The translations under genes were made by a program, and so were the position numbers. The notes beneath the pieces are model-generated. The model was not told the origin of the DNA, did not search any database, and was given only the letters and a program-made list of their open reading frames with translations. From assembly GCF_006716425.1 (NCBI RefSeq), contig NZ_VFOZ01000001.1:7241237-7273236 (forward strand): a stretch of DNA of 32,000 nucleotides, written 5' to 3'. Within the stretch, counting starts at the first letter, position 1. Each line of letters begins with the position of its first letter. The stretch is from Actinoallomurus bryophytorum. GTDB taxonomy: Bacteria; Actinomycetota; Actinomycetes; Streptosporangiales; Streptosporangiaceae. This document shows positions 3,229 through 32,000 of this stretch, in pieces.

Positions 3229-3391
3229 AGATACCCCGGCTTGGTGCACCCGTCCGCCACAGACCTGGAGCACCGCGCCGGGGCCGCTACACCATCGAAC
3301 CGATGCCGAGGTGCGGCGCGTCCCACCCTACTTGGGGGCGCCCTCCTCCGGTCGGTCGGTGAAACGACCACCGATAGGAGCTGGCACGACC

Positions 3392-5199: not shown

Positions 5200-5223
5200 C
5201 GTTACGCTCCAGGAGTGAACGAC

Positions 5224-5436
5224 ATGAAATGCACATATTGCGGTGCAATTGGCCTCGAACCCGGCTTCATCATGGACGCAGGTGAGGGCCGGGGGTACGC
5301 AAAGTGGGTTCAGGGCGCCCTCGAACGCGGCCCCCTCGGCGGTGCCAAGCTGGTAAAAAGACCGAAGTGGCAGATCGAGGTCTTTCGGTGCCTGCGGTGT
5401 GCGCACCTGGAGATGTTCGCCGCCAACCGGGTCTGA
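5224..5436 (+). CDS. Small zinc-ribbon protein (two CxxC pairs)
   Basis: MKCTYCG...FRCLRCAHLEMFA. The CxxC ... CxxC layout with GFI.D and W..G resembles a recurrent small zinc-ribbon family. AGGAG (5211-5215) lies 8 nt before ATG 5224. Confidence 0.6.
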   Translation: MKCTYCGAIGLEPGFIMDAGEGRGYAKWVQGALERGPLGGAKLVKRPKWQIEVFRCLRCAHLEMFAANRV

Positions 5437-8993: not shown

Positions 8994-9227
8994 GCCGTCC
9001 TCCCGCCCGCAGAGCCTGCCACCGGGCACCGACAGATCGGCGCGCGGCCTGACGCGCCATCCGCGGCGGTGCCGCGCTGGCGTACCGCGTCGCTCTTTCG
9101 ACGGCCTCGGTTTCGCGAAGGGCAGGAGATCCGGCCAGAACGGCGCTGCGGGCCCAGTGATCACACGCAGGTCTTGCGATGATGCGAATCCGGAGGTCTT
9201 CGCGCTAACCGGTTCTCGAGGAGCGTC

Positions 9228-9821
9228 ATGTGGCACGACATGCTGTCCGTCCAGATCCCCATCGTGGAGAAGGTGCTGCGGACCGTCGCGGTCTACGTGC
9301 TCATCGTGCTGCTGTTCCGCGTGGCGGGAAAACGGGGCCTGGCGAACCTCAACACCTTCGACTTCGTGGTGATCTTCCTGCTGTCCAACGTGGTGCAGAA
9401 CGCGATCATCGGTAGCGACAACAGCCTGCTCGGCGGGGTCATCGGCGCCGTGACCCTCGTCGCCATCAACGCGCTGCTGAACAGATGGCTGGCCGTCGAC
9501 GAACGCGCCGTACGCCTGCTGGAAGGGACACCGACCACCGTCATCGACGACGGTCTGCTGCTCACCCGGCCGCTCAAACGGCTCGGGCTACGGCCGGGGG
9601 AGGTCGAGCACGCGATCCGTGTCCAGAACGGCGAGACCACGGGCGACGTCGCCCTGGGGCGGCTGGATCCCGACGGCCAGTTCATCATCGTGCTCAAGTC
9701 GTCCGCACAGAACGCCACCCGCGGTGACGTCGCCGAGCTCGAGACCCGCCTGGCCGCCATCGAGGAGCTGCTGAGCACGCTGGCCGGCCGTCGGCCCGGC
9801 GCCCCCCGATCACCCGAGTGA
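9228..9821 (+). CDS. DUF421 (YetF-like) membrane protein
   Basis: The N-terminal transmembrane segments, RVAGKRGLANLNTFDFVVIFLLSNVVQNAI and the soluble C-terminal domain fit DUF421. GAGGAG lies 4 nt before the ATG. Confidence 0.75.
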   Translation: MWHDMLSVQIPIVEKVLRTVAVYVLIVLLFRVAGKRGLANLNTFDFVVIFLLSNVVQNAIIGSDNSLLGGVIGAVTLVAINALLNRWLAVDERAVRLLEGTPTTVIDDGLLLTRPLKRLGLRPGEVEHAIRVQNGETTGDVALGRLDPDGQFIIVLKSSAQNATRGDVAELETRLAAIEELLSTLAGRRPGAPRSPE

Positions 9822-9840
9822 ACGAACGGCGACAGGACTT

Positions 9841-10293
9841 TCACGCACGGTCGGTGTCTTCCGGCCAGGTCCATCGCGGGACCTCACGTAGGGGATGGAG
9901 GTCGGCATCGGTTTCGGCGTGGGAGTTCTGCCAGGCGACCTGCGAGCCGAACTCGACGTGGGAGCGGACCGCTTCGCGGAACGGCTCGTCGTCGGGCAGT
10001 CCGGCCTCGTCGAGCGCCTCCAGGTACAGCGCCACGAAACGCCTTCGCTGCTCCTCGGTGATCTCCATGTGCCGGTGCGCCTGGATGATGTGGCCGAAGC
10101 CCAGCTCCCGGGTGAACCGGTCGGGCCCGCCGAAGGACTCCGCCGTGAACCAGGTCAGGTGTTCGACATGGTGGGGCCGGCGCTCGGGGAACAACGGCTG
10201 GAGAACCGGGTCGGCGAGGACCTTCGTGTAGAAGAGCTCTTCCAGCCGGTGCAGTCCGTCATCACCCCCGGCGTGGGTGTAGAGGCTCGGCAT
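9841..10293 (-). CDS. Truncated (2-on-2) hemoglobin family protein
   Basis: GGDDGLHRLEELFYTKVLADPVLQPLFP...FGGPDRFT...HRHMEITEEQRRRFVALYLEALDEAG matches the trHb pattern. ATG 10293 follows GGAGG. Confidence 0.7.
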   Translation of the reverse strand: MPSLYTHAGGDDGLHRLEELFYTKVLADPVLQPLFPERRPHHVEHLTWFTAESFGGPDRFTRELGFGHIIQAHRHMEITEEQRRRFVALYLEALDEAGLPDDEPFREAVRSHVEFGSQVAWQNSHAETDADLHPLREVPRWTWPEDTDRA

Positions 10294-20721: not shown

Positions 20722-23700
20722 TTGGGTTCTCCGAAGCTCGTCGCAGCGGTGTCGCGGTCGGGAATTTTCGCTGCCGCGAAGGGTCTGTTCCGGAGCCCTG
20801 CCGTTCGGGTGGCCGCCCTCGCCTCTCGTGTGGGAAACCTGGTCGGCAGGGGTGCGCTTCGTACCGGTCTCAGCGGTCTGCGCAGATCACCGAGTTATCT
20901 GTCCCGGTCCATGACCAAGGACCCGATCGATGTTGCCAGTGGCGAGGTGGTGCTGCGCCAGGTCGACGTGGAGCTGGCCGGCGTTCTGCCGTTGTCGCTG
21001 GAGCGTACGCACGTGTCGTCCTATCGTGCCGGTCGCCTGTTCGGCACCTCGTGGGCGTCGACCCTGGATCAACGGCTGGAGTTCGACGCGGAGGGCGTGT
21101 GTTTCGCCGCGGCGGACGGAATGGTGCTCGCCTATCCGCCGGTGCGTCTGCCGGAGACCCCTGTCCTGCCGTTCGCGGGCCCGCAGTGGGCACTCGCGGT
21201 CGACCAGGACGGTGGCCATTCCGTCACGGACTCACAGGCCGGCCGCACGCTGCATTTCGCTTCCGCGGGCGGCGGGCCGGGCGTCCTGCCTCTTTCGGCG
21301 ATCAGCGACCGCAACGGTAACCGGATCGACCTTCTTCATGACGACAGTGGGACCCTCGTCGAGGTCCGGCATTCGGGCGGGTATCGAATCGGTGTCGAGA
21401 CCGATGCGACCCAGCGTGTGACGGCTTTGCGGCTGATCTCCGACGGCGAGGGCGGCGGGCGGGAACTGGTCCGTTACCGCTATGACGACAACGGGCGGCT
21501 GGCCGGGGTGCTGAACTCATCGGGCAGGCCGCTGCGATTCGAGTACGACCCGCACGACCGGCTGACCGCCTGGATCGACCGCAACGGCCATTGGTACCGG
21601 TACGAGTACGACGAGCTGGGCCGCGGTGTCCGCGGTCACGGGTCGGATGGCTTCTTGGACGTGGCTCTCGCCTTCGAGGACGGGCTCACCGTCGTGACCG
21701 ACGCGCTCGGGCACCGGACGGACTATCACCTGAACGAGATGGGCCAGGTGGTCCGCCAGGTCGACCCCCTGGGACGTGCGACGACCTCGGAGTGGGATCG
21801 CCACGACCGGCTGCTGTCCCGCACCGATCCGCTCGGGCGTAAGACGCGGTATTCCTATGACGAGGCGGGCGACGTCACCGCCATCACGAGGCCCGACGGC
21901 CGGCAGATCACGGCCGCGTACAACGCGCTCGGCCGGCCGGTCCGGACGGCCGACGCCGCCGGCCGGGTCTGGCGGCAGGCCTATGACGACCGCGGCAATG
22001 TCATCGCGGTGACCGATCCGGCCGGAGTCACCGTGCGGTACGAGTACGACGAGCGGGGTGCTCTGTCAGCGATCGTCGACCCGCTCGGGGCGGTGACCCG
22101 GTTCGTCAACGACGGCGCGGGCCTGCCGGTCACCGTCGTGGATCCGCTGGAGGGCGTCCACGGCTGCGTCCGCGACCGGTTCGGCCGTATATCGGAGATC
22201 GTGGATCCGCTTGGCGGGATCACTCGCATCGGCTGGACGCTGGAGGGCAGACCTGCCTCACAGGTGCTGCCGGATGGGGCCACCGAACGCTGGTCATACG
22301 ACGCCGAGGGAAACCTCGTCGAATACACCGACACCATGGGCCTGGTCAGCAGGACGGAATACGCGGCTTTCGATGTGCCCGCCGTCCGGATCGCGCCGGA
22401 CGGCACACGGCTGGAGTTCGCCTATGACGCCGAGCTGCGGTTGACGGCGGTCACCAATCCGCAGGAACTCGTGTGGCGCTATACCTATGACGCGGCGGGT
22501 GACCTGGTCCAGGAGACGGACTTCAACGGCCGGGCCATCCGCTATGCCTACGATGCGGCGGGACAACTCGCGGAGCGTGCTGTCGGCGCCGGTCAAACGA
22601 CCCGTTACTCGCACGACCTGCTCGGGAACGTCGTCAGGCAGGTTTCCGGTGACGGCCTCGCGACCTTCGCCTTCGACGTCACGGGCCGCCTGGTCCGAGC
22701 GGTGAACGCGGACGCCGACGTGCGGTTCGACTACGACGAGCTCGGCAGGGTGGTGGCCGAGGAGTGCAACGGCCGCAGGCTCACCGTCGGTTATGACGCC
22801 CTGGGGCGCCGCGTACGGCGCCGAACCCCCTCCGGCGCCGAGGCCGATTGGGACTATGACATCGCAGGGCGTCCGGCCGTACTCCACACCGCGGGCCAGA
22901 CGATTCGGTTCGAACACGACCTGGCCGGCCGGCAGGTCCGCCGTCATGTCGGGGACGCCGCGACCCTGGACCAGGAGTGGGACCTGCGTGACCGGCTGAG
23001 CCGCCAGACGTTGCGGGGCGTCCCCTCGGCCACCGGCGATCCTGCGTACGCGCCGCACCGCGCCGACTCCGCCGAGCCGGGGAGCCCGCTTCAGCGGCGC
23101 GCGTACTCCTACCGGCCCGACGGCGGTGTCGCCCGGATCATCGACCAGAGCCTGGGAGACCGAACCGTCGAGCTCGACGCGGCCGGGAGGGTGACCGGAG
23201 TCCATGCGGCGGGCTGGGACGAACGCTACGTCTATGACCCGGCGGGGAATCCGGTCCACGCCACCTGGCCGGAGACCGCGACCGGCGGGTCCTGGGACGC
23301 CGGCGCCGCCGGCGGGCGCGACTACACGGGGACCCTGGTCCGCTCGGCGGGCGATGTCCGCTACGAGTACGACGGCCGAGGCCGTGTCGTAGTCCGGCAG
23401 CAGAGACGTCTCTCGTCCAAGCCCAGGACCTGGCGATACGCCTGGAATGACGACGATCGCCTCGTCGCCGTCACCACCCCCGGCGGACAGCGGTGGCGCT
23501 ATCTGTACGACGCTCTGGGACGCCGCGTCGCCAAACAACGGCTACGGCCGGACGGTCACTCCGTCGCCGAACAGACCGACTTCACCTGGGATGACGTCGT
23601 ACTGGCAGAGCAGACGCATTCCGTCATGGAGGACGCCGGCGCCGTGACGCGCACGACCGCGTGGGACTACGAGCCCGGCGGCTTCCGGCCGATCGCCCAG

Positions 23701-24462
23701 ACCGAACGCGTCCTGAGCGGCGAGAGCCCCCAGGACGCGATCGACGAGAGGTTCTACGGCATCGTCACCGACCTGACCGGATCTCCCTCCGAGATGGTCG
23801 ACTCAACCGGCGACCTGGTCTGGCAGAGCGTCTCCAGCGCATGGGGGATCGGGGCGCCGCGAGGATCGGCGGCCTGCCCGCTGAGGTTCCCCGGCCAGTA
23901 CCACGACGCCGAAACCGGGCTTCACTACAACTTCCAGCGCTTCTACGACCCTTACACCGCGCGATACCAGAGCCCGGACCCGCTCGGCCTGTCGCCACAG
24001 CCTGACCCTCACGCCTACGTCCATGACCCGATGAACTGGGCCGACCCGCTCGGCCTGGCGCCATATGCTCTGTTCGTCAGCAGAATGGCCTTTGTGCTCC
24101 GTCACCTGAACGAGCCATCCCGGCTCAAAGCCATCAAGCTGGCCGTGCATGACAACCGCGAGATGTTCAACAGGCTCGGTGGAAAGGCCCCCCAGTCCAA
24201 CGCGACCATCCGTGACCTGCTGAAGCTCAAGGAGGGGAACCCTTCTTGGAAAGCGAGAGCGGCGAGCGCGAGTAGCCGATCGGACGCCGAACTGTTGCAG
24301 TCGGTCTTCCAGCCCATGGACGGTCAGTACATGGCTGTTCATCCCCTCTATCCGGGCATGATATTGCAAGGCAACCACAGGCGCAGGGAACTCCTCAACC
24401 GCGTAGATGATTTGAATTCAGGCATCTCACTGGAGACGCCCATCTTCATCAACAACTTCTAG
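20722..24462 (+). CDS. RHS/YD-repeat polymorphic toxin with a variable C-terminal module
   Basis: 1246 aa. An N-terminal DPIDVASGEVVL...LERTHVSSY block (DUF6531-like) is followed by about 20 YD repeats (YRYDDNGRL, YEYDELGR, YSYDEAGDV, YTYDAAGDL ...). The RHS core ends FPGQYHDAETGLHYNFQRFYDPYTARYQSPDPLGL...DPMNWADPLGL (24025-24057), followed by a 134-aa tail. The start is uncertain (TTG 20722 or ATG 20911). Confidence 0.9.
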   Translation: MGSPKLVAAVSRSGIFAAAKGLFRSPAVRVAALASRVGNLVGRGALRTGLSGLRRSPSYLSRSMTKDPIDVASGEVVLRQVDVELAGVLPLSLERTHVSSYRAGRLFGTSWASTLDQRLEFDAEGVCFAAADGMVLAYPPVRLPETPVLPFAGPQWALAVDQDGGHSVTDSQAGRTLHFASAGGGPGVLPLSAISDRNGNRIDLLHDDSGTLVEVRHSGGYRIGVETDATQRVTALRLISDGEGGGRELVRYRYDDNGRLAGVLNSSGRPLRFEYDPHDRLTAWIDRNGHWYRYEYDELGRGVRGHGSDGFLDVALAFEDGLTVVTDALGHRTDYHLNEMGQVVRQVDPLGRATTSEWDRHDRLLSRTDPLGRKTRYSYDEAGDVTAITRPDGRQITAAYNALGRPVRTADAAGRVWRQAYDDRGNVIAVTDPAGVTVRYEYDERGALSAIVDPLGAVTRFVNDGAGLPVTVVDPLEGVHGCVRDRFGRISEIVDPLGGITRIGWTLEGRPASQVLPDGATERWSYDAEGNLVEYTDTMGLVSRTEYAAFDVPAVRIAPDGTRLEFAYDAELRLTAVTNPQELVWRYTYDAAGDLVQETDFNGRAIRYAYDAAGQLAERAVGAGQTTRYSHDLLGNVVRQVSGDGLATFAFDVTGRLVRAVNADADVRFDYDELGRVVAEECNGRRLTVGYDALGRRVRRRTPSGAEADWDYDIAGRPAVLHTAGQTIRFEHDLAGRQVRRHVGDAATLDQEWDLRDRLSRQTLRGVPSATGDPAYAPHRADSAEPGSPLQRRAYSYRPDGGVARIIDQSLGDRTVELDAAGRVTGVHAAGWDERYVYDPAGNPVHATWPETATGGSWDAGAAGGRDYTGTLVRSAGDVRYEYDGRGRVVVRQQRRLSSKPRTWRYAWNDDDRLVAVTTPGGQRWRYLYDALGRRVAKQRLRPDGHSVAEQTDFTWDDVVLAEQTHSVMEDAGAVTRTTAWDYEPGGFRPIAQTERVLSGESPQDAIDERFYGIVTDLTGSPSEMVDSTGDLVWQSVSSAWGIGAPRGSAACPLRFPGQYHDAETGLHYNFQRFYDPYTARYQSPDPLGLSPQPDPHAYVHDPMNWADPLGLAPYALFVSRMAFVLRHLNEPSRLKAIKLAVHDNREMFNRLGGKAPQSNATIRDLLKLKEGNPSWKARAASASSRSDAELLQSVFQPMDGQYMAVHPLYPGMILQGNHRRRELLNRVDDLNSGISLETPIFINNF

Positions 24463-24471
24463 GATCTTTGA

Positions 24472-24885
24472 ATGCGATTCACCAAGGGCGATCGTCACGG
24501 CAGAAGCTGGCCGACCGTCGATCTCTACACGACAGCGGGACGAGGAGACATCAAGACGATGTCTCCTCCCGCCCTCGAACGCCTTATGACGGTGGCACGC
24601 GAAAAGGAGTGGAGCGCCGTCGGCCGCCCGGCATGGTGGGGCGCGCACAAAGACCGCGTCCGATCCCTGTGGATGGTCGTCTTCGGCCCGGAAGGGACCA
24701 CGCTGCTTCGGTGCATCGTGATCGCCGCTCTCGACGACGGCTCCGGGGGGAGTTTCACCCTCGACGTTCACCCCGCCGACTTCGACCGCCTGCCGGACGC
24801 GACACCGGAAGAACTGACCATGCTGGCCCACGCGTATCTCGCGCGGTTCCCGCCGCTCGAACTCGATCTCGACCAGCGGGAATGA
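24472..24885 (+). CDS. Candidate cognate immunity protein of the RHS C-terminal toxin
   Basis: 137-aa ORF beginning 9 nt after the RHS stop, on the same strand, with its 5' part in the same lower-GC patch. I recognised no family. The call rests on the canonical toxin-immunity gene order. Confidence 0.55.
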   Translation: MRFTKGDRHGRSWPTVDLYTTAGRGDIKTMSPPALERLMTVAREKEWSAVGRPAWWGAHKDRVRSLWMVVFGPEGTTLLRCIVIAALDDGSGGSFTLDVHPADFDRLPDATPEELTMLAHAYLARFPPLELDLDQRE

Positions 24886-24897
24886 GGGAGCGGGACG

Positions 24898-25188
24898 TTA
24901 CACGCCGGGCGGCTCGCGGAAGGTGGTCAGCTCCAGGTCGATGAAGGCGGCGATCATCGCCCGGTACGTACGCTCGGTCACGTCCGGTGAGGCACCGGCC
25001 TCCGTGGCCAGGGCGCGCGCCTTGGCCACGACCTGCTCCACGCGGCCGGGAGCCCGTACGGCATCGGTGTCGGCCTTCAGCCGCCCGGCCCTGCGCACGA
25101 GGCCCTCGCGTTCGGCGAGCAGGGTCACGAGCCGCCGGTCGAGGCGGTCGATCTCGGCACGGATCTCGTCGAGGGGATTGTCGCTCAT
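24898..25188 (-). CDS. Chorismate mutase (AroQ class)
   Basis: 96 aa. LDEIRAEIDRLDRRLVTLLAEREGLVRRAGRLK...R..QV is the classic CM type 2 helix pattern. AGAGGA lies before ATG 25188. Confidence 0.85.
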   Translation of the reverse strand: MSDNPLDEIRAEIDRLDRRLVTLLAEREGLVRRAGRLKADTDAVRAPGRVEQVVAKARALATEAGASPDVTERTYRAMIAAFIDLELTTFREPPGV

Positions 25189-25349: not shown

Positions 25350-27062
25350 TCAGTGCGACTCGCGCCGTACCTCGCTCCCGCTGGAGCCCGTCAGGAAGTC
25401 CAGGTCGGCACCCTTGTCGGCCTGCAGCACGTGGTCGATGTAGAGGCGTTCCCAGCCACGGACCGGAGCGGCGTGGGCGGCGCCGGACGCGGGCTCGCGT
25501 GCCTCCAGCTCGCCCTCGGGCAGGTCGACGTCCAGGCGCCGCGCCGCCACGTCCAGGACGATCATGTCCCCGGTCCGTACCTTCCCGAGCGGGCCGCCGG
25601 CGGCCGACTCCGGGGCCGTGTGCAGGACGACCGTGCCGTACGCGGTGCCGCTCATGCGGGCGTCGCTGATCCGCACCATGTCGCGGACGCCCCTGGCGAG
25701 CAGCTTCGCCGGCAGCGGCATGTTGCCCACCTCCGGCATCCCCGGGTATCCCTTCGGCCCGCAGCCGCGGAGCACCAGCACGCTGTCCTCGTCGACGTCC
25801 AGGTCCGGGTCGTCCAGGGCCGCTCGCATGTCCTCGATGCTGTCGAAGACCACGGCGCGGCCGCGGTGGCGCAACAGCGACGGTGACGCGGCGGCGGGCT
25901 TGACGACCGCGCCGTCGGGGCAGAGGTTGCCGCGCAGGACGGCGATGCCCGCCTCCTCCTGCAGGGGCGAGGTACGGCGGCGGATGACGGTCTCGTCGTG
26001 GATCTCGGCCTCGGCCAGGCCCTCGCCGATGGGCCGCCCGGTCACCATCAGGGCCGAGCCGTCGAGCAGGTCGGCCACCTCGGCCAGCACCGCACGCAGG
26101 CCGCCGGCCCGGTGGAAGTCCTCCATCAGGTGCGCCCCGGCCGGTTGCAGGTCGACGAGCAGCGGCACCTTCGCGCCGGCGTGGTCGAAGTCGTCCAGGG
26201 TCAGCGGGATGCCCGCGCGCCCGGCGATCGCCAGCAGGTGGACGACCGCGTTGGTGGAGCCGCCGATCGCGGCCAGCGCCACGATCGCGTTCAGGAACGA
26301 GCCGCGCGACAGGACCGTGCTCGGACGCCGGTCCTCCGCGACCATCTCCATGATCGCGGTTCCGGCCTCGTGGGCGCGTTCGAGCAGGCGGCTGTCCGGC
26401 GCCGGGATGCCGGCCACGCCGGGCAGCGTCATGCCCAGCGCCTCGGCGACGCAGGCCATCGTCGAGGCGGTGCCCATCGTGTTGCAGTGGCCGCGGCTGC
26501 GGATCATCGAGGACTCGGCCTCCAGGAACCGGTCCTGCGACAGCGTGCCCGCGCGCACCTCCTCGCTGAGCCGCCACACGTCGGTGCCGCACCCCAGCGG
26601 CGTGCCGCGGAAGTGACCGGTCAGCATCGGGCCGCCCGGCACGACGAGCGCCGGCAGGTCGACCGAGGCGGCGGCCATCAGCAGCGCGGGGATCGTCTTG
26701 TCGCAGCCGCCGAGCAGCACCACGCCGTCCACCGGGTTGGCGCGGATCATCTCCTCGGCCGCCATCGCCGCCAGGTTGCGGAACAGCATCGCCGTCGGGC
26801 GCAGCTGCGTCTCGCCCAGCGAGGGCACCGGCAGCTCCAGCGGGATGCCGCCGGCCGCCCAGACGCCGGCCTTGACGCTCGCGGCGACCTCGCCGAGGTG
26901 GCTGTTGCAGGGCGACAGGTCCGAGGCGGTGTTGGCGATCGCGATGTGGGGCCGCCCGTCGAAGGCGTCCGAGGGGAGACCGCGCCGCATCCAGGCCCGG
27001 TGGATGAAGGCGTTCCGATCGGTGCCCGAATACCAGTCCTGACTGCGGGGTGTACCGGCCAT
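25350..27062 (-). CDS. IlvD/Edd family dehydratase
   Basis: Family blocks are present: CDKTIPALLMAA, PGGPMLTG, RSRGHCNTMGTASTM, GGSTNAVVHLLAIA, GPKGYPGMPE and RMSGTAYG. ATG 27062 follows GAGGAGG. Substrate specificity (dihydroxy-acid versus sugar-acid) cannot be called from sequence alone. Confidence 0.9.
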   Translation of the reverse strand: MAGTPRSQDWYSGTDRNAFIHRAWMRRGLPSDAFDGRPHIAIANTASDLSPCNSHLGEVAASVKAGVWAAGGIPLELPVPSLGETQLRPTAMLFRNLAAMAAEEMIRANPVDGVVLLGGCDKTIPALLMAAASVDLPALVVPGGPMLTGHFRGTPLGCGTDVWRLSEEVRAGTLSQDRFLEAESSMIRSRGHCNTMGTASTMACVAEALGMTLPGVAGIPAPDSRLLERAHEAGTAIMEMVAEDRRPSTVLSRGSFLNAIVALAAIGGSTNAVVHLLAIAGRAGIPLTLDDFDHAGAKVPLLVDLQPAGAHLMEDFHRAGGLRAVLAEVADLLDGSALMVTGRPIGEGLAEAEIHDETVIRRRTSPLQEEAGIAVLRGNLCPDGAVVKPAAASPSLLRHRGRAVVFDSIEDMRAALDDPDLDVDEDSVLVLRGCGPKGYPGMPEVGNMPLPAKLLARGVRDMVRISDARMSGTAYGTVVLHTAPESAAGGPLGKVRTGDMIVLDVAARRLDVDLPEGELEAREPASGAAHAAPVRGWERLYIDHVLQADKGADLDFLTGSSGSEVRRESH

Positions 27063-27156
27063 GAGCCTGCCTCCTCGATCGCTGCGCCTTCTCCGCCCAT
27101 ACTGCGACCTGCGGCGCCACATTGCGACCGGGCGGTGATCAGGAGAGTGTGGGCCC

Positions 27157-27816
27157 ATGACAGACCAGGAAGCGCTCAGTACCTCCTACCGCGACGTCGT
27201 GGCCGCCCTGCGCAACATCGGCGCCGAGGAGGAGTGGCTGCCGACCGGATGCGCGGGCTGGACGGTGCGTGACCTGCTCTTCCACCTGCGCGGCGACGCG
27301 CAACGGGCGCTGGTGGCGCTCGCCAGCCCGGCCGGTACGGCGCCCGACACCGACGCCGTGTCCTACTGGAGGCGCTGGCGGCCGGGTACGGACGCCGCGC
27401 GGGCGAGCCTGCGGATGGTACGGATCAGCGCGAGCGTCTATCCGGGTCTGCGCCCGATCCTGGACAGCTACGCCGAGACCGCCGAGGCGGTCGTGTACGC
27501 CGCGGTGCACACCGATCCCGAGCTTCCGGTACGTACCCAGGGCCGTGTGCTGCGCGCCGGCGACCTCGTACGGACCCTGGTGGTCGAGGCGGCGGTCCAC
27601 CATCTCGACCTCGTCGTCGCGCTGGACCGGCCCCTGCCGTCGGCCGGGCCGCTGCGGGTGGTCAGGGAGACGCTCGACGGGCTGCTCGGTGAGCCGTTGC
27701 CGCTGTCCTGGGACGACGTGACCTACGCCCGCACCGGAACCGGCCGCGCCGGCGTGTCCGAGCAGGACCGGATCGCCCTGGGACCGCTGGCCGATCGCCT
27801 CCCGCTGTTCGGCTGA
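27157..27816 (+). CDS. DinB / maleylpyruvate isomerase N-terminal domain (mycothiol-dependent type) protein
   Basis: The CAGWTVRDLLFHL motif and a four-helix DinB-like N-terminal pattern are present. The protein is 219 aa. Confidence 0.65.
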   Translation: MTDQEALSTSYRDVVAALRNIGAEEEWLPTGCAGWTVRDLLFHLRGDAQRALVALASPAGTAPDTDAVSYWRRWRPGTDAARASLRMVRISASVYPGLRPILDSYAETAEAVVYAAVHTDPELPVRTQGRVLRAGDLVRTLVVEAAVHHLDLVVALDRPLPSAGPLRVVRETLDGLLGEPLPLSWDDVTYARTGTGRAGVSEQDRIALGPLADRLPLFG

Positions 27817-27819
27817 GAG

Positions 27820-29661
27820 TCACGACCGCACGTCGTCACGGTAACCGGACGCCTGGAGCTCGAAGAGCCCGGCGTAGATGCCGCCTGCGGCAAGGAGGTC
27901 GTCGTGGCCGCCCTGTTCGGCCACGACGCCGCCGGACAGCACCACGATCGCCTCGGCGTCCCGTACCGTGCTGAGCCGATGCGAGATCAGCAGGCTCGTA
28001 CGGCCGGCGCGGTGCTCGCGGAGCCGTCGGTGCACCTCGGATTCGGCCTCGGCGTCGAGACCGGCGCTCGGCTCGTCGAGGATGAGCAGGTCGGTGTCGT
28101 CCCGCAGCAGGGCGCGGGCGATGGCGACCCGCTGCCACTGGCCACCGGACAGGATCACTCCGCTGCCGGGATCGTCGTACTCCGTGGACTCGAAGGCCCG
28201 CGACAACATCGTGTCGTAACCGCGCGGCAGCGCCTCCAGGGCCGGGTCGCACCCGGCGCGGCGGGCGGCGGCCACGATGCGCTCACGGTCGGCCATCGCG
28301 TCCAGGTTCCCCACGCCGATGTTGTCGGCGGCGCTGAGGTCGTAGGCCATGTAGTCCTGGAAGACGGTGCCGATGCGGCGGCGCAGGACGTCGACGGGCA
28401 GCTCCCGGATGTCGACGCCGTCCCACAGCACGGCGCCGCGGGTGGGGTCGTAGAAGCGGCAGAGCAGCTTCACCAGGGTGCTCTTGCCGGCGCCGTTCGG
28501 TCCGACCAGCGCGGTCGCGTGGCCGGCCGGAATGGTCATCGTGACACCGCGCAGGATCCACGGGAGGTCGTCGCCGTAGCGGAACCAGACGTCGCGCAGT
28601 TCGATGCCGGTCCGCAGCGGGCGCACCGGCCGGCCGGCTCCGCCGTCCGGCGGGCCGGGCAGGTCCGGGCCGGCGCCGACGACGTGCCGGTAGTGCCCGA
28701 ACAGGATCATCGCCTCGTGCATCCGCCCGGTGCTGCTGATCACGATGGTCAGGCCGGTCTGCACCCCGGCGACCGCCGCGATGAAGACCGAGACGTCCCC
28801 GACGGTGAGCCGGCCGGCCCGCGCCGCGTTCACCGCCCACACCAGCCCGGCGCCCGCGACGAGCGCGCCGAGGAACGCGTACGTGCCCTGAACGGCGAGC
28901 TCACGGCGGCCCATCCGGCTGCGCTGGGCGTTGATGTGCGCCAGTTCGGTGAGCATGCGCGTGCCGAAGAGCCCGCCCAGCCCGTACAGGCGCACCTCCT
29001 TGGCCGCGCTCATGCTGGTCAGCAGCTGCGCGTAGAAGAACTCGCGGCGGGTGGAGGTACCGAGCCGCCAGATCGTGCGGGCCCGGTAGCGGCTCAGCCG
29101 GATCTCCCCGCGCAGTGCGACGGCCGCGGCCAACGTCACGGGCAGGAGCATCCACGGGCTGAGAACGGCCAGCGTGCCGACGAACCCGGCGAGCATGAGC
29201 GCGCCCTGGGCGCCGCCGAGCCCGCCGCTGATGACCTCCGACGGGCCGGACGGCCCGGTGTCGGCGGCCAGCGAGAGACGGTCGTGGAACCTCGGGTCCT
29301 CGAAGCGGCGCAGGCCCGGGATCCTGCCGATCGCGGCGTAGAGGCGTTCACGTGCGGTCAGGTCGATCGCGCGTTTCATCTCCGCCTCCGCGAACTGCAC
29401 GGCCTGGGGCAGGACGGCGGCGGCCACACCGGTCAGGGCCAGCAGGAGCACCGGGAGCAGCACGGGCCGGCCGGCCGTGGCGGTCAGGCGGTCGAGCACG
29501 GTCTTGGTCAGCCACGCCGCCGTCACCGGCACGACACTGGCCACGACGGCGAGGGCGACCCGGAGCAGCAACCGTCCGGGGCCGGACGCCCAGGCCATCG
29601 CCAGCGAGGCGCCGACCGAGGCCAGGGCGGAGTGGGTCGTGTCGTCGTCCGGACCGGTCAT
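27820..29661 (-). CDS. Fused ABC exporter (transmembrane domain plus ATPase), last gene of the ATP-grasp operon
   Basis: Six N-terminal hydrophobic segments are followed by Walker A GPNGAGKST, signature LSGGQWQR and Walker B LLILDEPSAGLD. ATG 29661 overlaps the stop of the upstream redoxin gene (ATGA). Confidence 0.85.
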   Translation of the reverse strand: MTGPDDDTTHSALASVGASLAMAWASGPGRLLLRVALAVVASVVPVTAAWLTKTVLDRLTATAGRPVLLPVLLLALTGVAAAVLPQAVQFAEAEMKRAIDLTARERLYAAIGRIPGLRRFEDPRFHDRLSLAADTGPSGPSEVISGGLGGAQGALMLAGFVGTLAVLSPWMLLPVTLAAAVALRGEIRLSRYRARTIWRLGTSTRREFFYAQLLTSMSAAKEVRLYGLGGLFGTRMLTELAHINAQRSRMGRRELAVQGTYAFLGALVAGAGLVWAVNAARAGRLTVGDVSVFIAAVAGVQTGLTIVISSTGRMHEAMILFGHYRHVVGAGPDLPGPPDGGAGRPVRPLRTGIELRDVWFRYGDDLPWILRGVTMTIPAGHATALVGPNGAGKSTLVKLLCRFYDPTRGAVLWDGVDIRELPVDVLRRRIGTVFQDYMAYDLSAADNIGVGNLDAMADRERIVAAARRAGCDPALEALPRGYDTMLSRAFESTEYDDPGSGVILSGGQWQRVAIARALLRDDTDLLILDEPSAGLDAEAESEVHRRLREHRAGRTSLLISHRLSTVRDAEAIVVLSGGVVAEQGGHDDLLAAGGIYAGLFELQASGYRDDVRS

Positions 29662-30188
29662 ACCGGCGCGGTATCCGGAATGCGCTCGGCGGTCGCGTAG
29701 CTCGCCACCATCGTGTCGCCGGACAGCAGCGCGAACGCCGGCAGGGCGCCGACACCGAAGGCCGTGACGAGGGGACCGCCCTCCTCCGTCTCGGTCAGGA
29801 CCCGGGCCACCGGTCTGAGCTGGTCGCACAGCTCACCGGCCCCCGGCGACGAGCCGAGGACGATGGCCAGGACCTGGTGACGGCCGCCCGCGGCGGCCTC
29901 GGCACGGCTGATGAAGTCCGGGAGGCCGGCCTCGCAGGACGGGCATCCGGGCGCCAGGAACCCGATCAGCGTGGATCCGTTCAGGTCCGCCCTCGACACC
30001 GGTTCGCCGTCCACGGCCGTCACCGTGAAGTCGCCCACCCGCTCGCCCGGCGGCACGCCGAGCGGCGCGGGCTCGGCCCGGCCAGGGGCCTTCTCCGCCA
30101 GCATCCGGGAATGGTCGTTCAGGCGGCGGATGACGCCGAGCATCAGGGCGATGTTGATCAGGCACAGGACACCGACGACCGCCGTCAT
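29658..30188 (-). CDS. Membrane-anchored thioredoxin-fold thiol:disulfide oxidoreductase (TlpA/MauD-like)
   Basis: The N-terminal transmembrane helix MTAVVGVLCLINIALMLGVI is followed by FLAPGCPSCEA (CPSC active site) and a thioredoxin-fold length. An ATGA overlap links it to the upstream MauE-like gene. Confidence 0.75.
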   Translation of the reverse strand: MTAVVGVLCLINIALMLGVIRRLNDHSRMLAEKAPGRAEPAPLGVPPGERVGDFTVTAVDGEPVSRADLNGSTLIGFLAPGCPSCEAGLPDFISRAEAAAGGRHQVLAIVLGSSPGAGELCDQLRPVARVLTETEEGGPLVTAFGVGALPAFALLSGDTMVASYATAERIPDTAPV

Positions 30189-30766
30189 GGGGTCTCCTCA
30201 CGGGCCCGTGGCCGCGGGCCCGTGCTCACGGGCCGGGCCAGCGTGATGATCTCTTCCAGGTTGATCAGCAGCAGGGCGCCCGCGACGCCCGCGGTGGCCG
30301 CGAGGACCCACGCGGAGCCGAACGGCGCGGGTCCGGCCGAGGTGGTGGTCATGACGAGGCCGCCGGCCGCGGCCACGAGCAGGGTCAGGTTGCGGGCGAG
30401 GTGTGCCGTACCGGGCGGGTGGCGGCCGGCGCCGAAGCAGCGGCACGGCACCCTGACCCGCCGGCGGATCATCGACTGGACGCTCGCGGTGAGGACGATG
30501 AGCAGCACCGTCGCCACCATGAACCCGGCCGGGACGAGCGGGGGGACCACCATGGCCACCGCCGTCGCGGCCTCGGCGGCCACGGCCACGACCGCGACCG
30601 CAGGCGCCAGACGCGAGGGGACTCCAGCACTGGCCGACAGCCAGTGCTGGAAGTCCGCGTACGCGGCCCGGCCGGTGACCTTGGCGGCCGTCGAGGTGCC
30701 GAACGCCACCACGATGACCGCCTGACAGCCCACCGTAAGTGAGGACGTCACATCGGACACGCGCAC
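30185..30766 (-). CDS. MauE / DoxX-like integral membrane protein
   Basis: 193 aa with four or five hydrophobic helices and the RVPCRCFG motif typical of the MauE family (PF07291), as I recall it. The GTG start is preceded by GAGGAG. Confidence 0.65.
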   Translation of the reverse strand: MRVSDVTSSLTVGCQAVIVVAFGTSTAAKVTGRAAYADFQHWLSASAGVPSRLAPAVAVVAVAAEAATAVAMVVPPLVPAGFMVATVLLIVLTASVQSMIRRRVRVPCRCFGAGRHPPGTAHLARNLTLLVAAAGGLVMTTTSAGPAPFGSAWVLAATAGVAGALLLINLEEIITLARPVSTGPRPRAREETP

Positions 30767-30781
30767 TCCTCGTCCGGACCG

Positions 30782-31807
30782 TCAGTACCCGACCTGGGTC
30801 ACCTCGCCTCGCTCGAACGGGCCGCCCCGCATGAGGAGCTCAGCCATGCACTCGCCCATCTCCAGGCCGAGGTCGAAGTGCATCCACATGAACTGACCCG
30901 CCGGGTTGACCTCCAGGAAGATGTACTCCCCGTCCGGCGTGACGATGAAGTCCACCGCGCCGTAGACCGCGCCGAGCTCGGCGAACAACGCCTGGGTCTT
31001 CTTGATGATCTCGTCGGGCAGTGGCTGGTAGTCGCCGTAGGGCAGGGAGGCCTGCTCGCCCGCCTGACCGCGCCAGTCCACCTTCGTCGTGTCCATGTCC
31101 TGGGATTTGATCGTCACCGGGAAGTAGGTGTTCCCGATCACGGTGAGCCGCACCTCGTAGGCCTTGTCGACGTACTCCTGGAACATGCACATCGTGTGGC
31201 CGACGCGGTCGAGGTGCTCGCGGATCTCGTCCCCGACCACCGTCGTCAGCAACCCACCGGGGAACGCGCCCGGATAGTGGATCACTCCGCCGGTGAACGA
31301 CTTGTAGACGATGGGCCGGTCGGCACTGTCGAGCAGCGCACTGACCTCCTGCGGATCGTTGGTCAGCAACGTCCTCGGCACGCGGAACCCGAGCCGCTTC
31401 GCCAGCTCCAGCTGGTACGGCTTCAGCTCCCCGATCGCGTCGATGTCCGGCCGGTTGACCCACAGGCAGTTGGTCGCGCGCAGGATGCCGCCGATGCCCT
31501 GCATCGCCTCTTTGCGTGCGTAGATCCTCTCTGGTTCGCCCATCTCGGGGCCGAAGTCGAACCCGGTCGGGCGGCGGTACCAAACGCCCGCGAGCCGATC
31601 GAGATCGACCTCACGGTCGCGGTCGCGCAACAACCGCCGCCTGTCGTCGAAGTCGGAGGTCGTGAAGCTCAACCGTCGCGGAAAGTAGCTCAGGTCGACG
31701 CGTACGACCTCGGCGCCCCGCTCCGAGAGAGTCCGGATGACGGGGTCGACGGTCGGATCGAATTCCTGGGTCAGGATGAGGACGCAGGGCGTCGGCGACG
31801 AGGTCAT
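30782..31807 (-). CDS. MvdC/MvdD-type ATP-grasp peptide ligase (RiPP maturase-like)
   Basis: 341 aa. The pre-ATP-grasp N-terminus CVLILTQEFDPTVDPVIRTLSERGAEVVRVD is followed by KPYQLELAKRLGFRVPRTLLTND, IVYKS, CMFQEYVDKAYEVRLTVIG and AVDFIVTPDGEYIFLEVNPAGQF. This layout fits microviridin-type ATP-grasp ligases rather than RimK or GshB. Confidence 0.75.
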   Translation of the reverse strand: MTSSPTPCVLILTQEFDPTVDPVIRTLSERGAEVVRVDLSYFPRRLSFTTSDFDDRRRLLRDRDREVDLDRLAGVWYRRPTGFDFGPEMGEPERIYARKEAMQGIGGILRATNCLWVNRPDIDAIGELKPYQLELAKRLGFRVPRTLLTNDPQEVSALLDSADRPIVYKSFTGGVIHYPGAFPGGLLTTVVGDEIREHLDRVGHTMCMFQEYVDKAYEVRLTVIGNTYFPVTIKSQDMDTTKVDWRGQAGEQASLPYGDYQPLPDEIIKKTQALFAELGAVYGAVDFIVTPDGEYIFLEVNPAGQFMWMHFDLGLEMGECMAELLMRGGPFERGEVTQVGY

Positions 31808-31810
31808 CGA

Positions 31811-32000
31811 TCAGGCGCACACGTCGTCTCTGCAGGTGTCACTGCCCGCATAGCAACTGGTCGAGGTGTTCGTGGAGATGCCGGCGGTGGTGGTGCCGGG
31901 CGGGAACGTCCAGGTCTGCGTGTCCTGGTCGTAGTGGCCGCCCATGGGCTCGGACACCTGGCCGTCCCACTCGGCGTACAGGTAGGCGAGCGGCTGCTCG
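31811..32000 (-). CDS. Partial small ORF: candidate ATP-grasp-modified RiPP precursor (N-terminus outside the window)
   Basis: My hand translation of the minus strand gives ...EQPLAYLYAEWDGQVSEPMGGHYDQDTQTWTFPPGTTTAGISTNTSTSCYAGSDTCRDDVCA, then TGA at 31813-31811. That stop is separated by 3 nt from the ATP-grasp ATG (31807). GC3 is high. The ORF is absent from the supplied track because no start lies inside the window. Confidence 0.6.
   Translation of the reverse strand, partial: EQPLAYLYAEWDGQVSEPMGGHYDQDTQTWTFPPGTTTAGISTNTSTSCYAGSDTCRDDVCA

What the first reader, a model, noticed from the sequence alone, without database searches (positions are those of the whole stretch)
31811..32000. 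Unlisted edge ORF encoding a Thr/Ser/Asp/Cys-rich peptide directly upstream of the ATP-grasp gene
The six-frame track omits it. The minus strand reads through the window edge as ...EQPLAYLYAEWDGQVSEPMGGHYDQDTQTWTFPPGTTTAGISTNTSTSCYAGSDTCRDDVCA-stop, ending 3 nt before the ATP-grasp ATG. The last ~40 residues carry about 15 Ser/Thr hydroxyl donors, 6 Asp acceptors and 3 Cys, which is the composition expected for an ATP-grasp-crosslinked core. The helical-looking PLAYLYAEW stretch could be the leader recognition element, analogous to PFFARFL in microviridins. From memory, HYDQDTQ resembles the D-P-x-T-Q motif I recall in actinobacterial putative ATP-grasp-modified RiPP precursors. That recollection needs checking.
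Basis: partly seen in the sequence, partly recalled or inferred. Interest (0 to 1): 0.8.

Follow-up and report, generated by a model that had tools for sequence, protein, structure and literature searches.

The report
Group 9 graspetide precursor peptide gene
The ORF cut by the window edge is the 3' end of a real 93-codon gene for a ribosomal peptide that the adjacent ATP-grasp enzyme most likely cross-links; it belongs to a family already catalogued by genome mining ("Group 9" graspetides), for which I found no characterised product.

Summary
The minus strand reads exactly as quoted, and the stop codon lies 3 nt before the ATP-grasp ATG. On the parent contig the gene is 93 codons long, with a GAGGAGGA ribosome-binding site and GC3 of 0.89.

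Orthologues from Actinomadura kijaniata and Catelliglobosispora koreensis are already labelled "Lee 2020 group 9" in Makarova 2022. It is not TIGR04186: there is no HMM hit and no methyltransferase gene.

- **Core.** Across 18-38 homologues the invariant or near-invariant residues are T74-x-T76-x-T78, D85, D89-D90 and C92. That gives three hydroxyl donors and three acid acceptors.
- **Leader.** P34 and Y37 (PLAYLY), and G52, Q59 and W61 (GHYDxxTQTW), are invariant.
- **Operon.** It runs precursor, ATP-grasp, MauE (CxCFG), membrane-anchored CxxC redoxin, ABC exporter. The oxidoreductase pair is present in 24 of 26 loci with multi-Cys cores and in 0 of 3 loci whose core keeps only C92. This points to an extracytoplasmic C80-C87 disulfide.

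Two features lie just outside the window. One is a leader-only paralogue ("A") in all 27 loci where the upstream DNA could be read. The other is a triple 11-nt repeat upstream of A, next to a SARP regulator gene.

Verdict: new member of a known kind, moderate interest.

The parts
31811..32000 (-). 3' part (62 codons plus stop) of the 93-codon precursor gene 'B'. The remaining 31 codons lie beyond the window edge (L001 9716-9807).
   Evidence: GC3 0.89 and RBS; orthologues
31976..31993 (-). Leader motif P34-L-A-Y37-L-Y, the 'Phhx(1,2)h' graspetide leader element. P34 and Y37 are invariant.
   Evidence: alignments A1 and A3; Makarova Table S3 flag; also shared with paralogue A (hhalign)
31910..31939 (-). 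Second leader motif G52-H-Y-D-x-x-T-Q59-T-W61. G52, Q59 and W61 are invariant and D55 nearly so. It is homologous to the DPxTQT motif of group-8/TIGR04186-type leaders.
31814..31882 (-). Predicted core G71-ISTNTSTSCYAGSDTCRDDVCA93. Donors are T74, T76 and T78; acceptors are D85, D89 and D90; cysteines are C80, C87 and the invariant C92.
   Evidence: Cys covariation with MauE/redoxin
30782..31807 (-). ATP-grasp peptide maturase (graspetide synthetase), 341 aa, starting 3 nt after the precursor stop codon.
   Evidence: TIGR04187 at 285 bits (below its 350 cutoff), MvdD/MvdC at 188/165 bits, PF21068 MvdD pre-ATP-grasp domain; 81% identical to the A. kijaniata enzyme labelled gr_09
30185..30760 (-). 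MauE-family polytopic membrane protein with an invariant C(R/H/K)CFG motif.
   Evidence: PF07291 E=6.8e-21; gene call; motif conserved in 24 loci
29658..30188 (-). MauD-like thioredoxin-fold oxidoreductase with an N-terminal membrane anchor and a CPSC (CxxC) motif. It overlaps MauE by 4 nt.
   Evidence: Redoxin/AhpC-TSA and a weak MauD match; CxxC invariant in 24 loci; fused to MauE in Micromonospora L029
27820..29661 (-). MsbA-like ABC exporter (613 aa as called) with no peptidase domain. It overlaps the redoxin gene by 4 nt.
   Evidence: conserved downstream in 24 related loci; MsbA_rel is the top co-occurring protein of Group 9

Best explanation
The edge ORF is the C-terminal two-thirds of a 93-aa Group 9 graspetide precursor.

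**Shown.**
- It is a conserved, translated gene directly upstream of an MvdD-type ATP-grasp gene, 3 nt away.
- It has a leader of about 70 aa carrying three conserved blocks: MSDTLTRxPL, PLAYLY and GHYDxxTQTW.
- It has a core of about 23 aa whose conserved residues are T74-x-T76-x-T78, D85, D89-D90 and C92.

**Inferred.**
- In the cytoplasm the ATP-grasp binds the leader, phosphorylates the three Asp side chains with ATP, and lets the three Thr hydroxyls attack. This gives three omega-ester macrolactones and a mass loss of 54 Da, probably in a hairpin or nested arrangement.
- The MsbA-like ABC transporter exports the peptide.
- Outside the reducing cytoplasm, the membrane MauE (CxC) and the anchored CxxC redoxin act as a DsbB/DsbA-like relay that closes a C80-C87 disulfide around D85.
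- C92 is invariant even where no oxidoreductase is encoded, so it has another role that remains unknown.
- Leader removal is by a protease not encoded in this operon.
- A leader-only paralogue (A) encoded just upstream probably acts with the enzyme rather than being a product.
- The operon is probably driven by a SARP regulator through three 11-nt direct repeats.
For: - **Gene reality and length:**
- **Enzyme type:**
- **Family assignment:** the A. kijaniata orthologue pair (precursor gi 1903134356, ATP-grasp gi 1903134355) and the C. koreensis and V. maris precursors are labelled '2020_Lee gr_09' in Makarova 2022 Tables S1/S3. My L005 and L020 are those same loci.
- **Conserved donors, acceptors and leader:** alignments A1 and A3.
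- **Operon:** the order A-B-ATP-grasp-MauE-redoxin-ABC, with 4-nt overlaps in L001, holds in 23 genome loci plus L029, where MauE and the redoxin are fused.
- **Published co-occurrence for Group 9:** MsbA_rel 68.8%, AhpC/TSA 39.9%, MauE 29.6% of 253 BGCs (Carter 2026 Table S4).
- **Cys/oxidoreductase covariation:** all 24 loci with MauE+redoxin have cores with at least 3 Cys. The 3 loci whose core keeps only C92, with Tyr/Trp in place of C80/C87, have neither gene (L022, L027, L028).
- **Redox motifs:** both are invariant.
- **Weak structural hint:** AF2 pairs strand 72-76 with strand 87-91.
Against: - No chemistry was observed. The ester bonds, their number and topology, and the disulfide are all inferred.
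- Two loci (L020 C. koreensis, L030 metagenome) have Cys-rich CxC-type cores and an ABC exporter but no MauE/redoxin nearby, so the link is not absolute.
- Three Cys is an odd number, and the role of C92 is unexplained.
- The ATP-grasp scores below the TIGR04187 curated cutoff (285 against 350 bits).
- The AF2 models are low-confidence (pLDDT 58-60).
- The covariation counts are not phylogenetically independent.
- I could not read Lee 2020 or Ramesh 2021, so the published Group 9 motif was not checked directly.
Confidence: 0.85

Rival explanations
1. It is a TIGR04186 / graspimiditide-type precursor (fuscimiditide-like). On this reading, the ester cross-links are followed by Asp O-methylation and aspartimide formation.
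For: The ATP-grasp's best NCBIfam match is TIGR04187, the partner enzyme of TIGR04186. A YD(P)xTQ leader motif is shared, and Makarova's 'cluster 2' merges groups 8, 9 and 11 on the basis of leader similarity.
Against: The full-length peptide gives no TIGR04186, PF14404 or PF14408 hit at E<=10, while the control KPI31284.1 scores 46 bits and 124 bits. The TIGR04187 score is below its cutoff. No methyltransferase is encoded in the 21 kb around the gene. In Makarova's tables TIGR04186 maps to gr_08, whereas this family maps to gr_09.
Confidence: 0.03
2. The cysteines are not disulfide partners. One or more might be ATP-grasp nucleophiles forming thiolactone (omega-thioester) rings, or they might bind a metal or form an intermolecular dimer. 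MauE/redoxin would then serve as a reductant or isomerase, or act on another substrate.
For: - C92 is invariant in every homologue, including loci with no oxidoreductase or exporter.
- The number of Cys is odd.
- Graspetide synthetases can make non-native thioesters (Carter 2026 introduction).
- L020 and L030 have CxC-rich cores without MauE.
Against: C80 and C87 are lost together and replaced by aromatic residues exactly where MauE/redoxin are absent. That is the pattern expected for a disulfide pair served by that machinery. The three invariant Asp are already matched by three conserved Thr. The redoxin has an N-terminal membrane anchor (read from its sequence), consistent with an extracytoplasmic domain, away from the ATP-dependent enzyme.
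Confidence: 0.15
3. The upstream paralogue A, not B, is the main product, or A and B are two precursors of a two-peptide system. B alone would then be an incomplete description.
For: A is present in all 27 loci where the upstream DNA could be read and is the first gene of the operon. It shares the PLAYLY...GHYD..W leader module with B (hhalign 93%, E=2.5e-7). It has conserved Ser/Thr in W-x-F-S-G-E-V-T-G-I-x-G-I-T-E-P.
Against: The acidic positions of A's C-terminal block are not conserved as acids across the loci: Q replaces E in L001, L002, L016, L021 and L030. A lacks the Asp/Cys-rich tail. A is more conserved than B, with 59-62% against 39-49% identity at the largest distances, which is atypical for a diversifying product.
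Confidence: 0.12
4. The edge ORF is a chance open frame in high-GC DNA, or the tail of a larger ordinary protein.
For: High-GC actinomycete DNA has many long spurious ORFs, and the window shows dozens. The stop-to-stop frame is 209 codons long in L001.
Against: - GC3 is 0.89 in this frame against about 0.58 in the others.
- An RBS precedes the ATG, and the N-terminus MSDTLTRxPL is conserved across genera.
- 43 database homologues are 79-108 aa long.
- The family is already in published precursor lists.
Confidence: 0.01

Closest known systems
Group 9 graspetides / omega-ester-containing peptides (Lee et al. 2020 JACS; Ramesh 2021; Makarova 2022 'cluster 2, gr_09'; Carter 2026 Table S4)
   Same: The precursor and ATP-grasp are orthologous. 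The ATP-grasp is 81% identical to the A. kijaniata enzyme and 71% to the C. koreensis enzyme, both labelled gr_09. The leader motif (Phhx1-2h) is the same, as is the TxTxT...D...DD-C core. The co-occurring MsbA-like ABC, AhpC/TSA-fold redoxin and MauE are also the same.
   Different: Nothing essential; this is a new orthologue. I did not find three features mentioned in the literature I could read: the universal leader-only paralogue A, the Cys/MauE-redoxin covariation, and the SARP-type repeats. The PF01972 serine proteinase, present in 55.7% of Group 9 BGCs, is absent here.
TIGR04186/PF14404-PF14408 precursors with TIGR04187 ATP-grasp (groups 8, 11, 13; fuscimiditide, albusimiditide, prunipeptin)
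   Same: Both are actinobacterial, with related ATP-grasp enzymes. They share a YD(P)xTQT leader element and Thr-rich/Asp-rich C-terminal cores.
   Different: There is no HMM match, no PIMT-type O-methyltransferase and no Cys in those cores. The ATP-grasp here is below the TIGR04187 cutoff.
Microviridins (Group 1; MdnA/MdnB/MdnC)
   Same: The logic is the same: leader-guided ATP-grasp macrocyclisation of Thr/Ser onto Asp/Glu, with an ABC exporter in the cluster. The enzyme hits the MvdD and MvdC models and the MvdD pre-ATP-grasp domain.
   Different: There is a single ATP-grasp, no Lys and so no lactam, a different leader motif (PLAYLY rather than PFFARFL), no GNAT, and added Cys with a MauE/redoxin pair.
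MauE/MauD of methylamine dehydrogenase maturation, and MauE/MauD-containing Cys-rich candidate RiPP clusters (decRiPPter, Kloosterman 2020)
   Same: A membrane MauE plus a thioredoxin-fold MauD-like protein sit next to a Cys-containing secreted substrate, and the proposed role is disulfide formation.
   Different: There are no other mau genes. The substrate is an ATP-grasp-modified peptide with only 3 Cys, whereas the decRiPPter candidates have at least 8 Cys and were not linked to ATP-grasp enzymes.
Partner-protein-dependent graspetide synthesis (rosaritide MirB/MirC; Carter 2026)
   Same: A strictly co-occurring extra protein sits next to the synthetase. Here it is protein A, present in all 27 loci where the upstream DNA could be read.
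   Different: MirC is a 315-aa SurA/PpiC-like folded protein. A is a peptide-like protein of about 100-120 aa, homologous to the precursor's own leader and predicted to have little stable fold. No functional test has been done.

Membership tests
Graspetide (RiPP class) | A short precursor gene adjacent to, and co-directional with, an MvdD/RimK-type ATP-grasp peptide maturase | tested here: met
   A 93-aa gene ends 3 nt before a 341-aa ATP-grasp that hits TIGR04187, TIGR04184, TIGR04185 and PF21068
Graspetide (RiPP class) | Conserved donor (Ser/Thr/Lys) and acceptor (Asp/Glu) residues in a C-terminal core | tested here: met
   T76, D85, D89 and D90 are invariant; T74 and T78 are conserved in at least 90% of sequences in A1. 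In A3, T76, D89 and D90 are invariant
Graspetide (RiPP class) | Side-chain ester or amide macrocycles actually installed by the enzyme | not testable with these tools
   Needs co-expression and MS/MS
Group 9 graspetides (Lee 2020) | The ATP-grasp and precursor cluster with sequences assigned to group 9 | tested here: met
   L005 (A. kijaniata BCQR01000007.1) and L020 (C. koreensis KB903249.1) are the loci labelled gr_09 in Makarova Tables S1/S3. The window's ATP-grasp is 81% and 71% identical to theirs, and the precursors align end to end
Group 9 graspetides (Lee 2020) | An exact match to the published group 9 core consensus motif | not tested
   Lee 2020 and Ramesh 2021 are not in the held library. 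The motif was derived here independently as TxTxT-x6-7-D-x3-DD-x-C-x
TIGR04186 (GRASP_targ) / graspimiditides | A match to the TIGR04186 HMM (cutoff 25 bits) or to PF14404/PF14408 | tested here: not met
   No hit at E<=10 for the full-length peptide. Control KPI31284.1 scores 46.2 bits on TIGR04186 and 123.9 bits on PF14404
TIGR04186 (GRASP_targ) / graspimiditides | A neighbouring PIMT-type O-methyltransferase (TIGR04188) | tested here: not met
   No methyltransferase among the called genes in the 21 kb around the precursor
TIGR04187 (GRASP_SAV_5884) ATP-grasp subfamily | A score at or above the curated cutoff of 350 bits | tested here: not met
   285.3 bits. This is the best-scoring model, but the score is below its cutoff
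Microviridin (Group 1) | A PFFARFL leader helix, a TxKxPSDx(E/D)(D/E) core and two ATP-grasp ligases | tested here: not met
   The leader is PLAYLY, the core has no Lys, and there is a single ATP-grasp. MvdD and MvdC scores of 188 and 165 bits are far below their cutoffs of 475 and 425

The most novel reading that the evidence does not exclude
Group 9 graspetide synthesis may be a three-part system that has not been described.

1. A leader-only paralogue (A) is encoded first in the operon. It is homologous to the precursor's own leader, has little predicted fold, and is more conserved than the precursor. It would act in trans on the ATP-grasp as a natural 'split leader' or peptide-type partner, needed to activate the enzyme or to set ring order.
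2. The tri-lactone peptide is exported.
3. A dedicated MauE/MauD-like relay adds a disulfide outside the cell.

The product would be the first graspetide combining ester rings with an enzymatically installed disulfide, and it would carry an invariant free Cys next to the C-terminus.
Probability: 0.25. Interest if true: 0.65.

Novelty: new member of a known kind. Interest (0 to 1): 0.4.

Why it matters
For the finding itself, the value is a confirmation.

Biologically, Group 9 is one of the graspetide groups for which I found no characterised product. It has 253 BGCs in the 2026 survey. The alignments here give a concrete prediction that can be tested directly:
- three Thr-to-Asp esters;
- one disulfide made by a MauE/redoxin pair;
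- an invariant C-terminal Cys.

They also flag a strictly co-occurring, unannotated leader-like protein. HMM-based co-occurrence surveys cannot see it because it matches no Pfam or TIGRFAM model. If that protein is required, it would extend the recently discovered idea of partner-dependent graspetide synthesis to a peptide-type partner.

Tried and rejected
- **HMM scans of the peptide.** Pfam and NCBIfam scans of the 62-aa fragment and of full-length B and A gave no hits. TIGR04186 membership was rejected using a positive control.
- **Rfam.** A scan of the window and L001 at gathering thresholds found nothing, so the conserved DNA upstream of A is not a known RNA family.
- **AlphaFold2.** Models of A and B from 37-38-sequence alignments were low-confidence (pLDDT 59.7 and 58.3). 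No fold search was attempted because the matches would be meaningless.
- **First homologue search.** The search with B alone found only 4 proteins because of the word index. It was repeated with an 18-sequence alignment and found 43.
- **Profile search with A.** Against 1.84 billion representative proteins it found only 21 hits, so there is no link to any larger family.
- **Literature not held.** Ramesh 2021 (PMC8688276) is not held, and Lee 2020 carries no PMC id in the reference list, so neither could be read. The published Group 9 motif and any notes on these clusters could not be read.
- **Literature searches.** 'graspetide + MauE' returned 0 papers. 'graspetide + group 9' returned only Carter 2026.
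- **Search for A in Makarova's supplements.** WSFSG and FLRFD found nothing, but the files were truncated when stored, so absence is not proven.
- **A as a second cross-linked core.** I consider this less likely because its acidic positions tolerate Gln.
- **Conserved 'ERTESELRAVIGDDA' as an N-terminal extension of A.** I rejected this reading. It follows a stop codon and contains no start codon, and it is explained by the DNA repeats. The conserved GTG/ATG start lies downstream of it.
Full report

Yes. The TGA stop at 31813-31811 is followed by three bases and then the ATG of a 341-aa ORF (30782-31807, minus strand).

The ORF listing shows only a 48-aa GTG-started fragment, because ORFs that run off the window are not listed. 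That explains why the first-stage six-frame track omitted it.

The composition claim is slightly high. The last 40 residues contain 14 Ser/Thr, 5 Asp and 3 Cys.

**2. Recovering the missing 5' end.**

An exact-sequence look-up of the ATP-grasp protein found the parent contig, GCA_054781975.1 BAAGTJ010000088.1 (locus L001). Window coordinate w maps to L001 coordinate 41808 - w.

In L001 the gene is called at 9716-9997, which is 93 aa:
MSDTLTREPLNTSLSFLAGHHVELAPPADPREQPLAYLYAEWDGQVSEPMGGHYDQDTQTWTFPPGTTTAGISTNTSTSCYAGSDTCRDDVCA.

Several results support this gene model:
- GAGGAGGA lies 7 nt before the ATG.
- GC3 is 0.89 in frame against 0.59 and 0.57 out of frame.
- Orthologues in other genera start with the same M-S/T-x-T-L-T-R-x-P-L.

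The gene is well under 120 codons.

**3. What surrounds it.**

The downstream genes on the same strand are as follows:

| Gene | Window coordinates | Evidence |
|---|---|---|
| ATP-grasp | 30782-31807 | TIGR04187 at 285 bits (cutoff 350); MvdD 188 and MvdC 165 bits; PF21068 MvdD pre-ATP-grasp domain |
| MauE-family membrane protein | 30185-30760 | PF07291, E = 6.8e-21 |
| Thioredoxin-fold redoxin | 29658-30188 | Weak MauD match; N-terminal membrane anchor; CPSC motif |
| MsbA-like ABC exporter | 27820-29661 | No peptidase domain |

The last three genes overlap by 4 nt, which indicates a translationally coupled operon. No methyltransferase and no protease is encoded in the 21 kb around the precursor.

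**4. Related loci.**

A scan of one genome per species returned 25 loci (L002-L026). They come from Actinomadura, Spirillospora, Thermomonospora, Actinoplanes, Plantactinospora, Catellatospora, Catelliglobosispora, Pseudonocardia and Virgisporangium, with ATP-grasp identity of 66-82%. Every intact locus has a B-type precursor ending just before the ATP-grasp gene.

An 18-sequence alignment (A1) gives these conserved positions:
- Invariant: M1, L5, P9, L10, P34, Y37, G52, Q59, W61, G71, T76, D85, D89, D90, C92.
- Nearly invariant: P64, T74, T78.

A 38-sequence alignment of database homologues (A3) keeps P34, Y37, G52, Q59, W61, G71, T76, D89, D90 and C92 invariant.

The conserved chemistry is therefore three hydroxyl donors (T-x-T-x-T), three carboxylate acceptors (D...DD) and one cysteine next to the C-terminus.

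**5. Family assignment from the literature.**

Makarova et al. 2022 (PMC8939145) list several of these sequences in their supplementary tables and FASTA files:
- The A. kijaniata orthologue: BCQR01000007.1 gene_100, ...QPLAYLYSEWDG...TYTNTSCYMGSDRCRDDTCA, which is my L005.
- The two C. koreensis precursors on KB903249.1, which is my L020.
- The Verrucosispora maris precursor, whose adjacent ATP-grasp (gi 1004813249) carries the gr_09 label in Table S1.

The A. kijaniata and C. koreensis precursors are placed in precursor 'cluster 2' and labelled '2020_Lee gr_09' with leader motif 'Phhx[1-2]h'. The adjacent ATP-grasp enzymes of all three species carry the same gr_09 label.

Carter et al. 2026 (PMC13097080, Table S4) count 253 Group 9 BGCs. 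The co-occurring proteins are:

| Protein | Share of Group 9 BGCs |
|---|---|
| MsbA_rel ABC transporter | 68.8% |
| PF01972 serine proteinase | 55.7% |
| AhpC/TSA | 39.9% |
| MauE | 29.6% |

The finding is therefore a new orthologue of an already catalogued family.

I found no report of a characterised Group 9 product:
- Carter 2026 adds groups 15 and 21.
- Full-text searches for Group 9 returned only the Carter paper.
- Lee 2020 and Ramesh 2021 were not available to read.

**6. The TIGR04186 suggestion.**

This was tested and not met.
- Full-length B gives no NCBIfam or Pfam hit at E<=10.
- The control peptide KPI31284.1 scores 46.2 bits on TIGR04186 and 123.9 bits on PF14404.
- In Makarova's tables TIGR04186 corresponds to group 8.

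Group 9 relatives read GHYDPVTQTW (L022, P0077), and group-8 type leaders read (L/I)DPVTQTG. This is the reason Makarova's sensitive clustering merges groups 8, 9 and 11 on their leaders.

**7. Cysteines and the MauE/redoxin pair.**

MauE and the redoxin follow the ATP-grasp in 24 loci: L001-L019, L021, L023-L025 and L029. In L029 they are fused into one 340-aa protein.

Their redox motifs are invariant in all 24: C(R/H/K)CFG in MauE and CxxC in the redoxin.

All 24 of these loci have cores with at least 3 Cys. The three loci whose core retains only C92 have Tyr or Trp in place of C80 and C87, and they encode neither protein nor the exporter next to the ATP-grasp. Those three loci are:
- L022, the second locus of T. 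echinospora.
- L027, A. kijaniata BCQR01000159.1.
- L028, Actinomadura sp. DSM 109109.

Counting loci naively, 0 of 3 against 24 of 26 has a hypergeometric probability of about 0.003. This is my own arithmetic on those counts, and the loci are not phylogenetically independent.

Two exceptions, L020 and L030, have CxC-rich cores and an exporter but no MauE.

The pattern fits a C80-C87 disulfide installed after export by a DsbB/DsbA-like relay. That is an inference. Kloosterman 2020 made the same suggestion for other MauE/MauD RiPP candidates. The invariance of C92 remains unexplained.

**8. Mechanism.**

*Shown:* gene, operon, conserved residues and covariation.

*Inferred, from established graspetide enzymology as summarised in Carter 2026:*
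- The leader binds the ATP-grasp.
- The enzyme phosphorylates D85, D89 and D90 with ATP.
- T74, T76 and T78 attack the acyl phosphates, giving three macrolactones.
- The peptide is exported and then oxidised.

AF2 weakly pairs strand 72-76 with strand 87-91 (pLDDT below 50 in that region). That is compatible with a hairpin or nested topology but is not evidence for one.

**9. Things found just outside the window.**

*(a) A second, paralogous gene, 'A'.* It lies at L001 9378-9746 and encodes up to 122 aa.
- It precedes B in all 27 loci where the upstream DNA could be read.
- It shares the PLAYLYE...AGH(Y/F)DE..LVW module with B (hhalign 93.4%, E = 2.5e-7).
- It ends in W-x-F-S-G-E-V-T-G-I-x-G-I-T-E-P followed by a variable Pro-rich tail, with no Asp/Cys-rich core.
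- Its acidic positions tolerate Gln.
- It has no Pfam or NCBIfam match.
- Its family is small: 38 near homologues, all annotated 'hypothetical', and 21 representatives among 1.84 billion proteins.
- It is predicted to lack a stable fold (pLDDT 59.7).
- It is more conserved than B. Mean identity to L001 is 68% against 61%, and at the largest distances it is 59-62% against 39-49%.

I read it as a leader-like accessory rather than a product, but this is untested.

*(b) A conserved repeat element.* Immediately upstream of A's conserved GTG/ATG lie three 11-nt direct repeats (TGAGAGCGnnn). They are followed by a -10-like hexamer about 7 nt before the start codon. An exact pattern search finds the element once per locus in 15 loci, and more degenerate copies, including L001's, are visible in the alignment.

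A BTAD/SARP regulator gene lies just upstream in L001-L020 and L030.

From general knowledge of SARP boxes, which are heptamer repeats at 11-bp spacing abutting the -10 element, this looks like a SARP-activated promoter that may give a leaderless transcript. No Rfam family matches the region.

**10. Verdict.**

- Observation: confirmed.
- Interpretation: supported, with the family corrected from TIGR04186 to Group 9.
- Novelty: new member of a known, bioinformatically defined kind.
- Interest: moderate (0.4). This reflects the apparent lack of a characterised Group 9 product and the testable additions of the disulfide relay, the invariant C92 and the leader-only paralogue.

Noticed in passing
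L001 9378-9746 (+), equivalent to window 32062-32430 on the minus strand, just beyond the window edge: A paralogous gene 'A' of at most 122 aa lies upstream of the precursor. It carries the same PLAYLY...GHYD..W leader module but no Asp/Cys-rich core. It is present in all 27 loci where the upstream DNA could be read, has no Pfam or NCBIfam match, and is more conserved than the precursor.
   Followed up: yes
L001 about 9328-9377, and the same position in the other loci (15 of them found by an exact pattern search), e.g. L006 5217-5246: Three 11-nt direct repeats (TGAGAGCGnnn) are followed by a -10-like hexamer about 7 nt before A's conserved GTG/ATG start. This looks like a SARP-box promoter that may give a leaderless mRNA. 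There is no Rfam match.
   Followed up: partly
L001 5305-7731 (+); L002-L020 about 2900-5350; L030 4873-6281: A large BTAD/SARP-family regulator gene lies directly upstream of the operon in most loci. In the window's genome it is separated from the operon by an inserted SDR gene (L001 7779-8552, minus strand) and a TetR gene (8635-9285, plus strand).
   Followed up: partly
L029 8319-9341: In Micromonospora, MauE and the CxxC redoxin are fused into one 340-aa protein. This supports the view that they work together.
   Followed up: partly
L022, L027 and L028 (precursors P0066, P0070, P0077): A Group 9 sub-type has a core that keeps only the C-terminal Cys, with Tyr/Trp replacing the other two. 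These loci lack MauE, the redoxin and the ABC exporter next to the ATP-grasp. T. echinospora and A. kijaniata each carry both sub-types.
   Followed up: yes
L020 5375-5973; L030 6706-7270: These loci have two tandem B-type precursors with CxC/CxCxC-rich cores, and in L030 a conserved C-D-H in the leader. They have an exporter but no MauE/redoxin. The Cys chemistry may differ here, possibly metal binding or vicinal disulfides.
   Followed up: no
L005 5317-5730: The A. kijaniata copy of A has degraded leader motifs (PLGHLDE and GRYGQD in place of PLAYLYE and GHYDE) but keeps the C-terminal WDFSGEVTGIAGITEP block.
   Followed up: no
L026 6001-6402: Virgisporangium aurantiacum retains only the C-terminal 138 residues of the ATP-grasp, with no precursor upstream. 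This is a decayed remnant of the cluster.
   Followed up: no
window 20722-24462 (+) and 24472-24885 (+): A 1246-aa RHS/YD-repeat protein (DUF6531, RHS repeats, variable C-terminus) is followed by a small 137-aa ORF. This looks like a polymorphic toxin with an immunity gene, about 3 kb from the graspetide operon and unrelated to it.
   Followed up: no
window 24898-25188 (-), 25350-27158 (-; called product 570 aa), 27157-27816 (+): Housekeeping-type genes lie between the RHS locus and the operon: a chorismate mutase (CM_2), a dihydroxy-acid dehydratase (ILVD_EDD) and an MDMPI_N/DinB-like protein. These annotations come from the precomputed Pfam hits.
   Followed up: no
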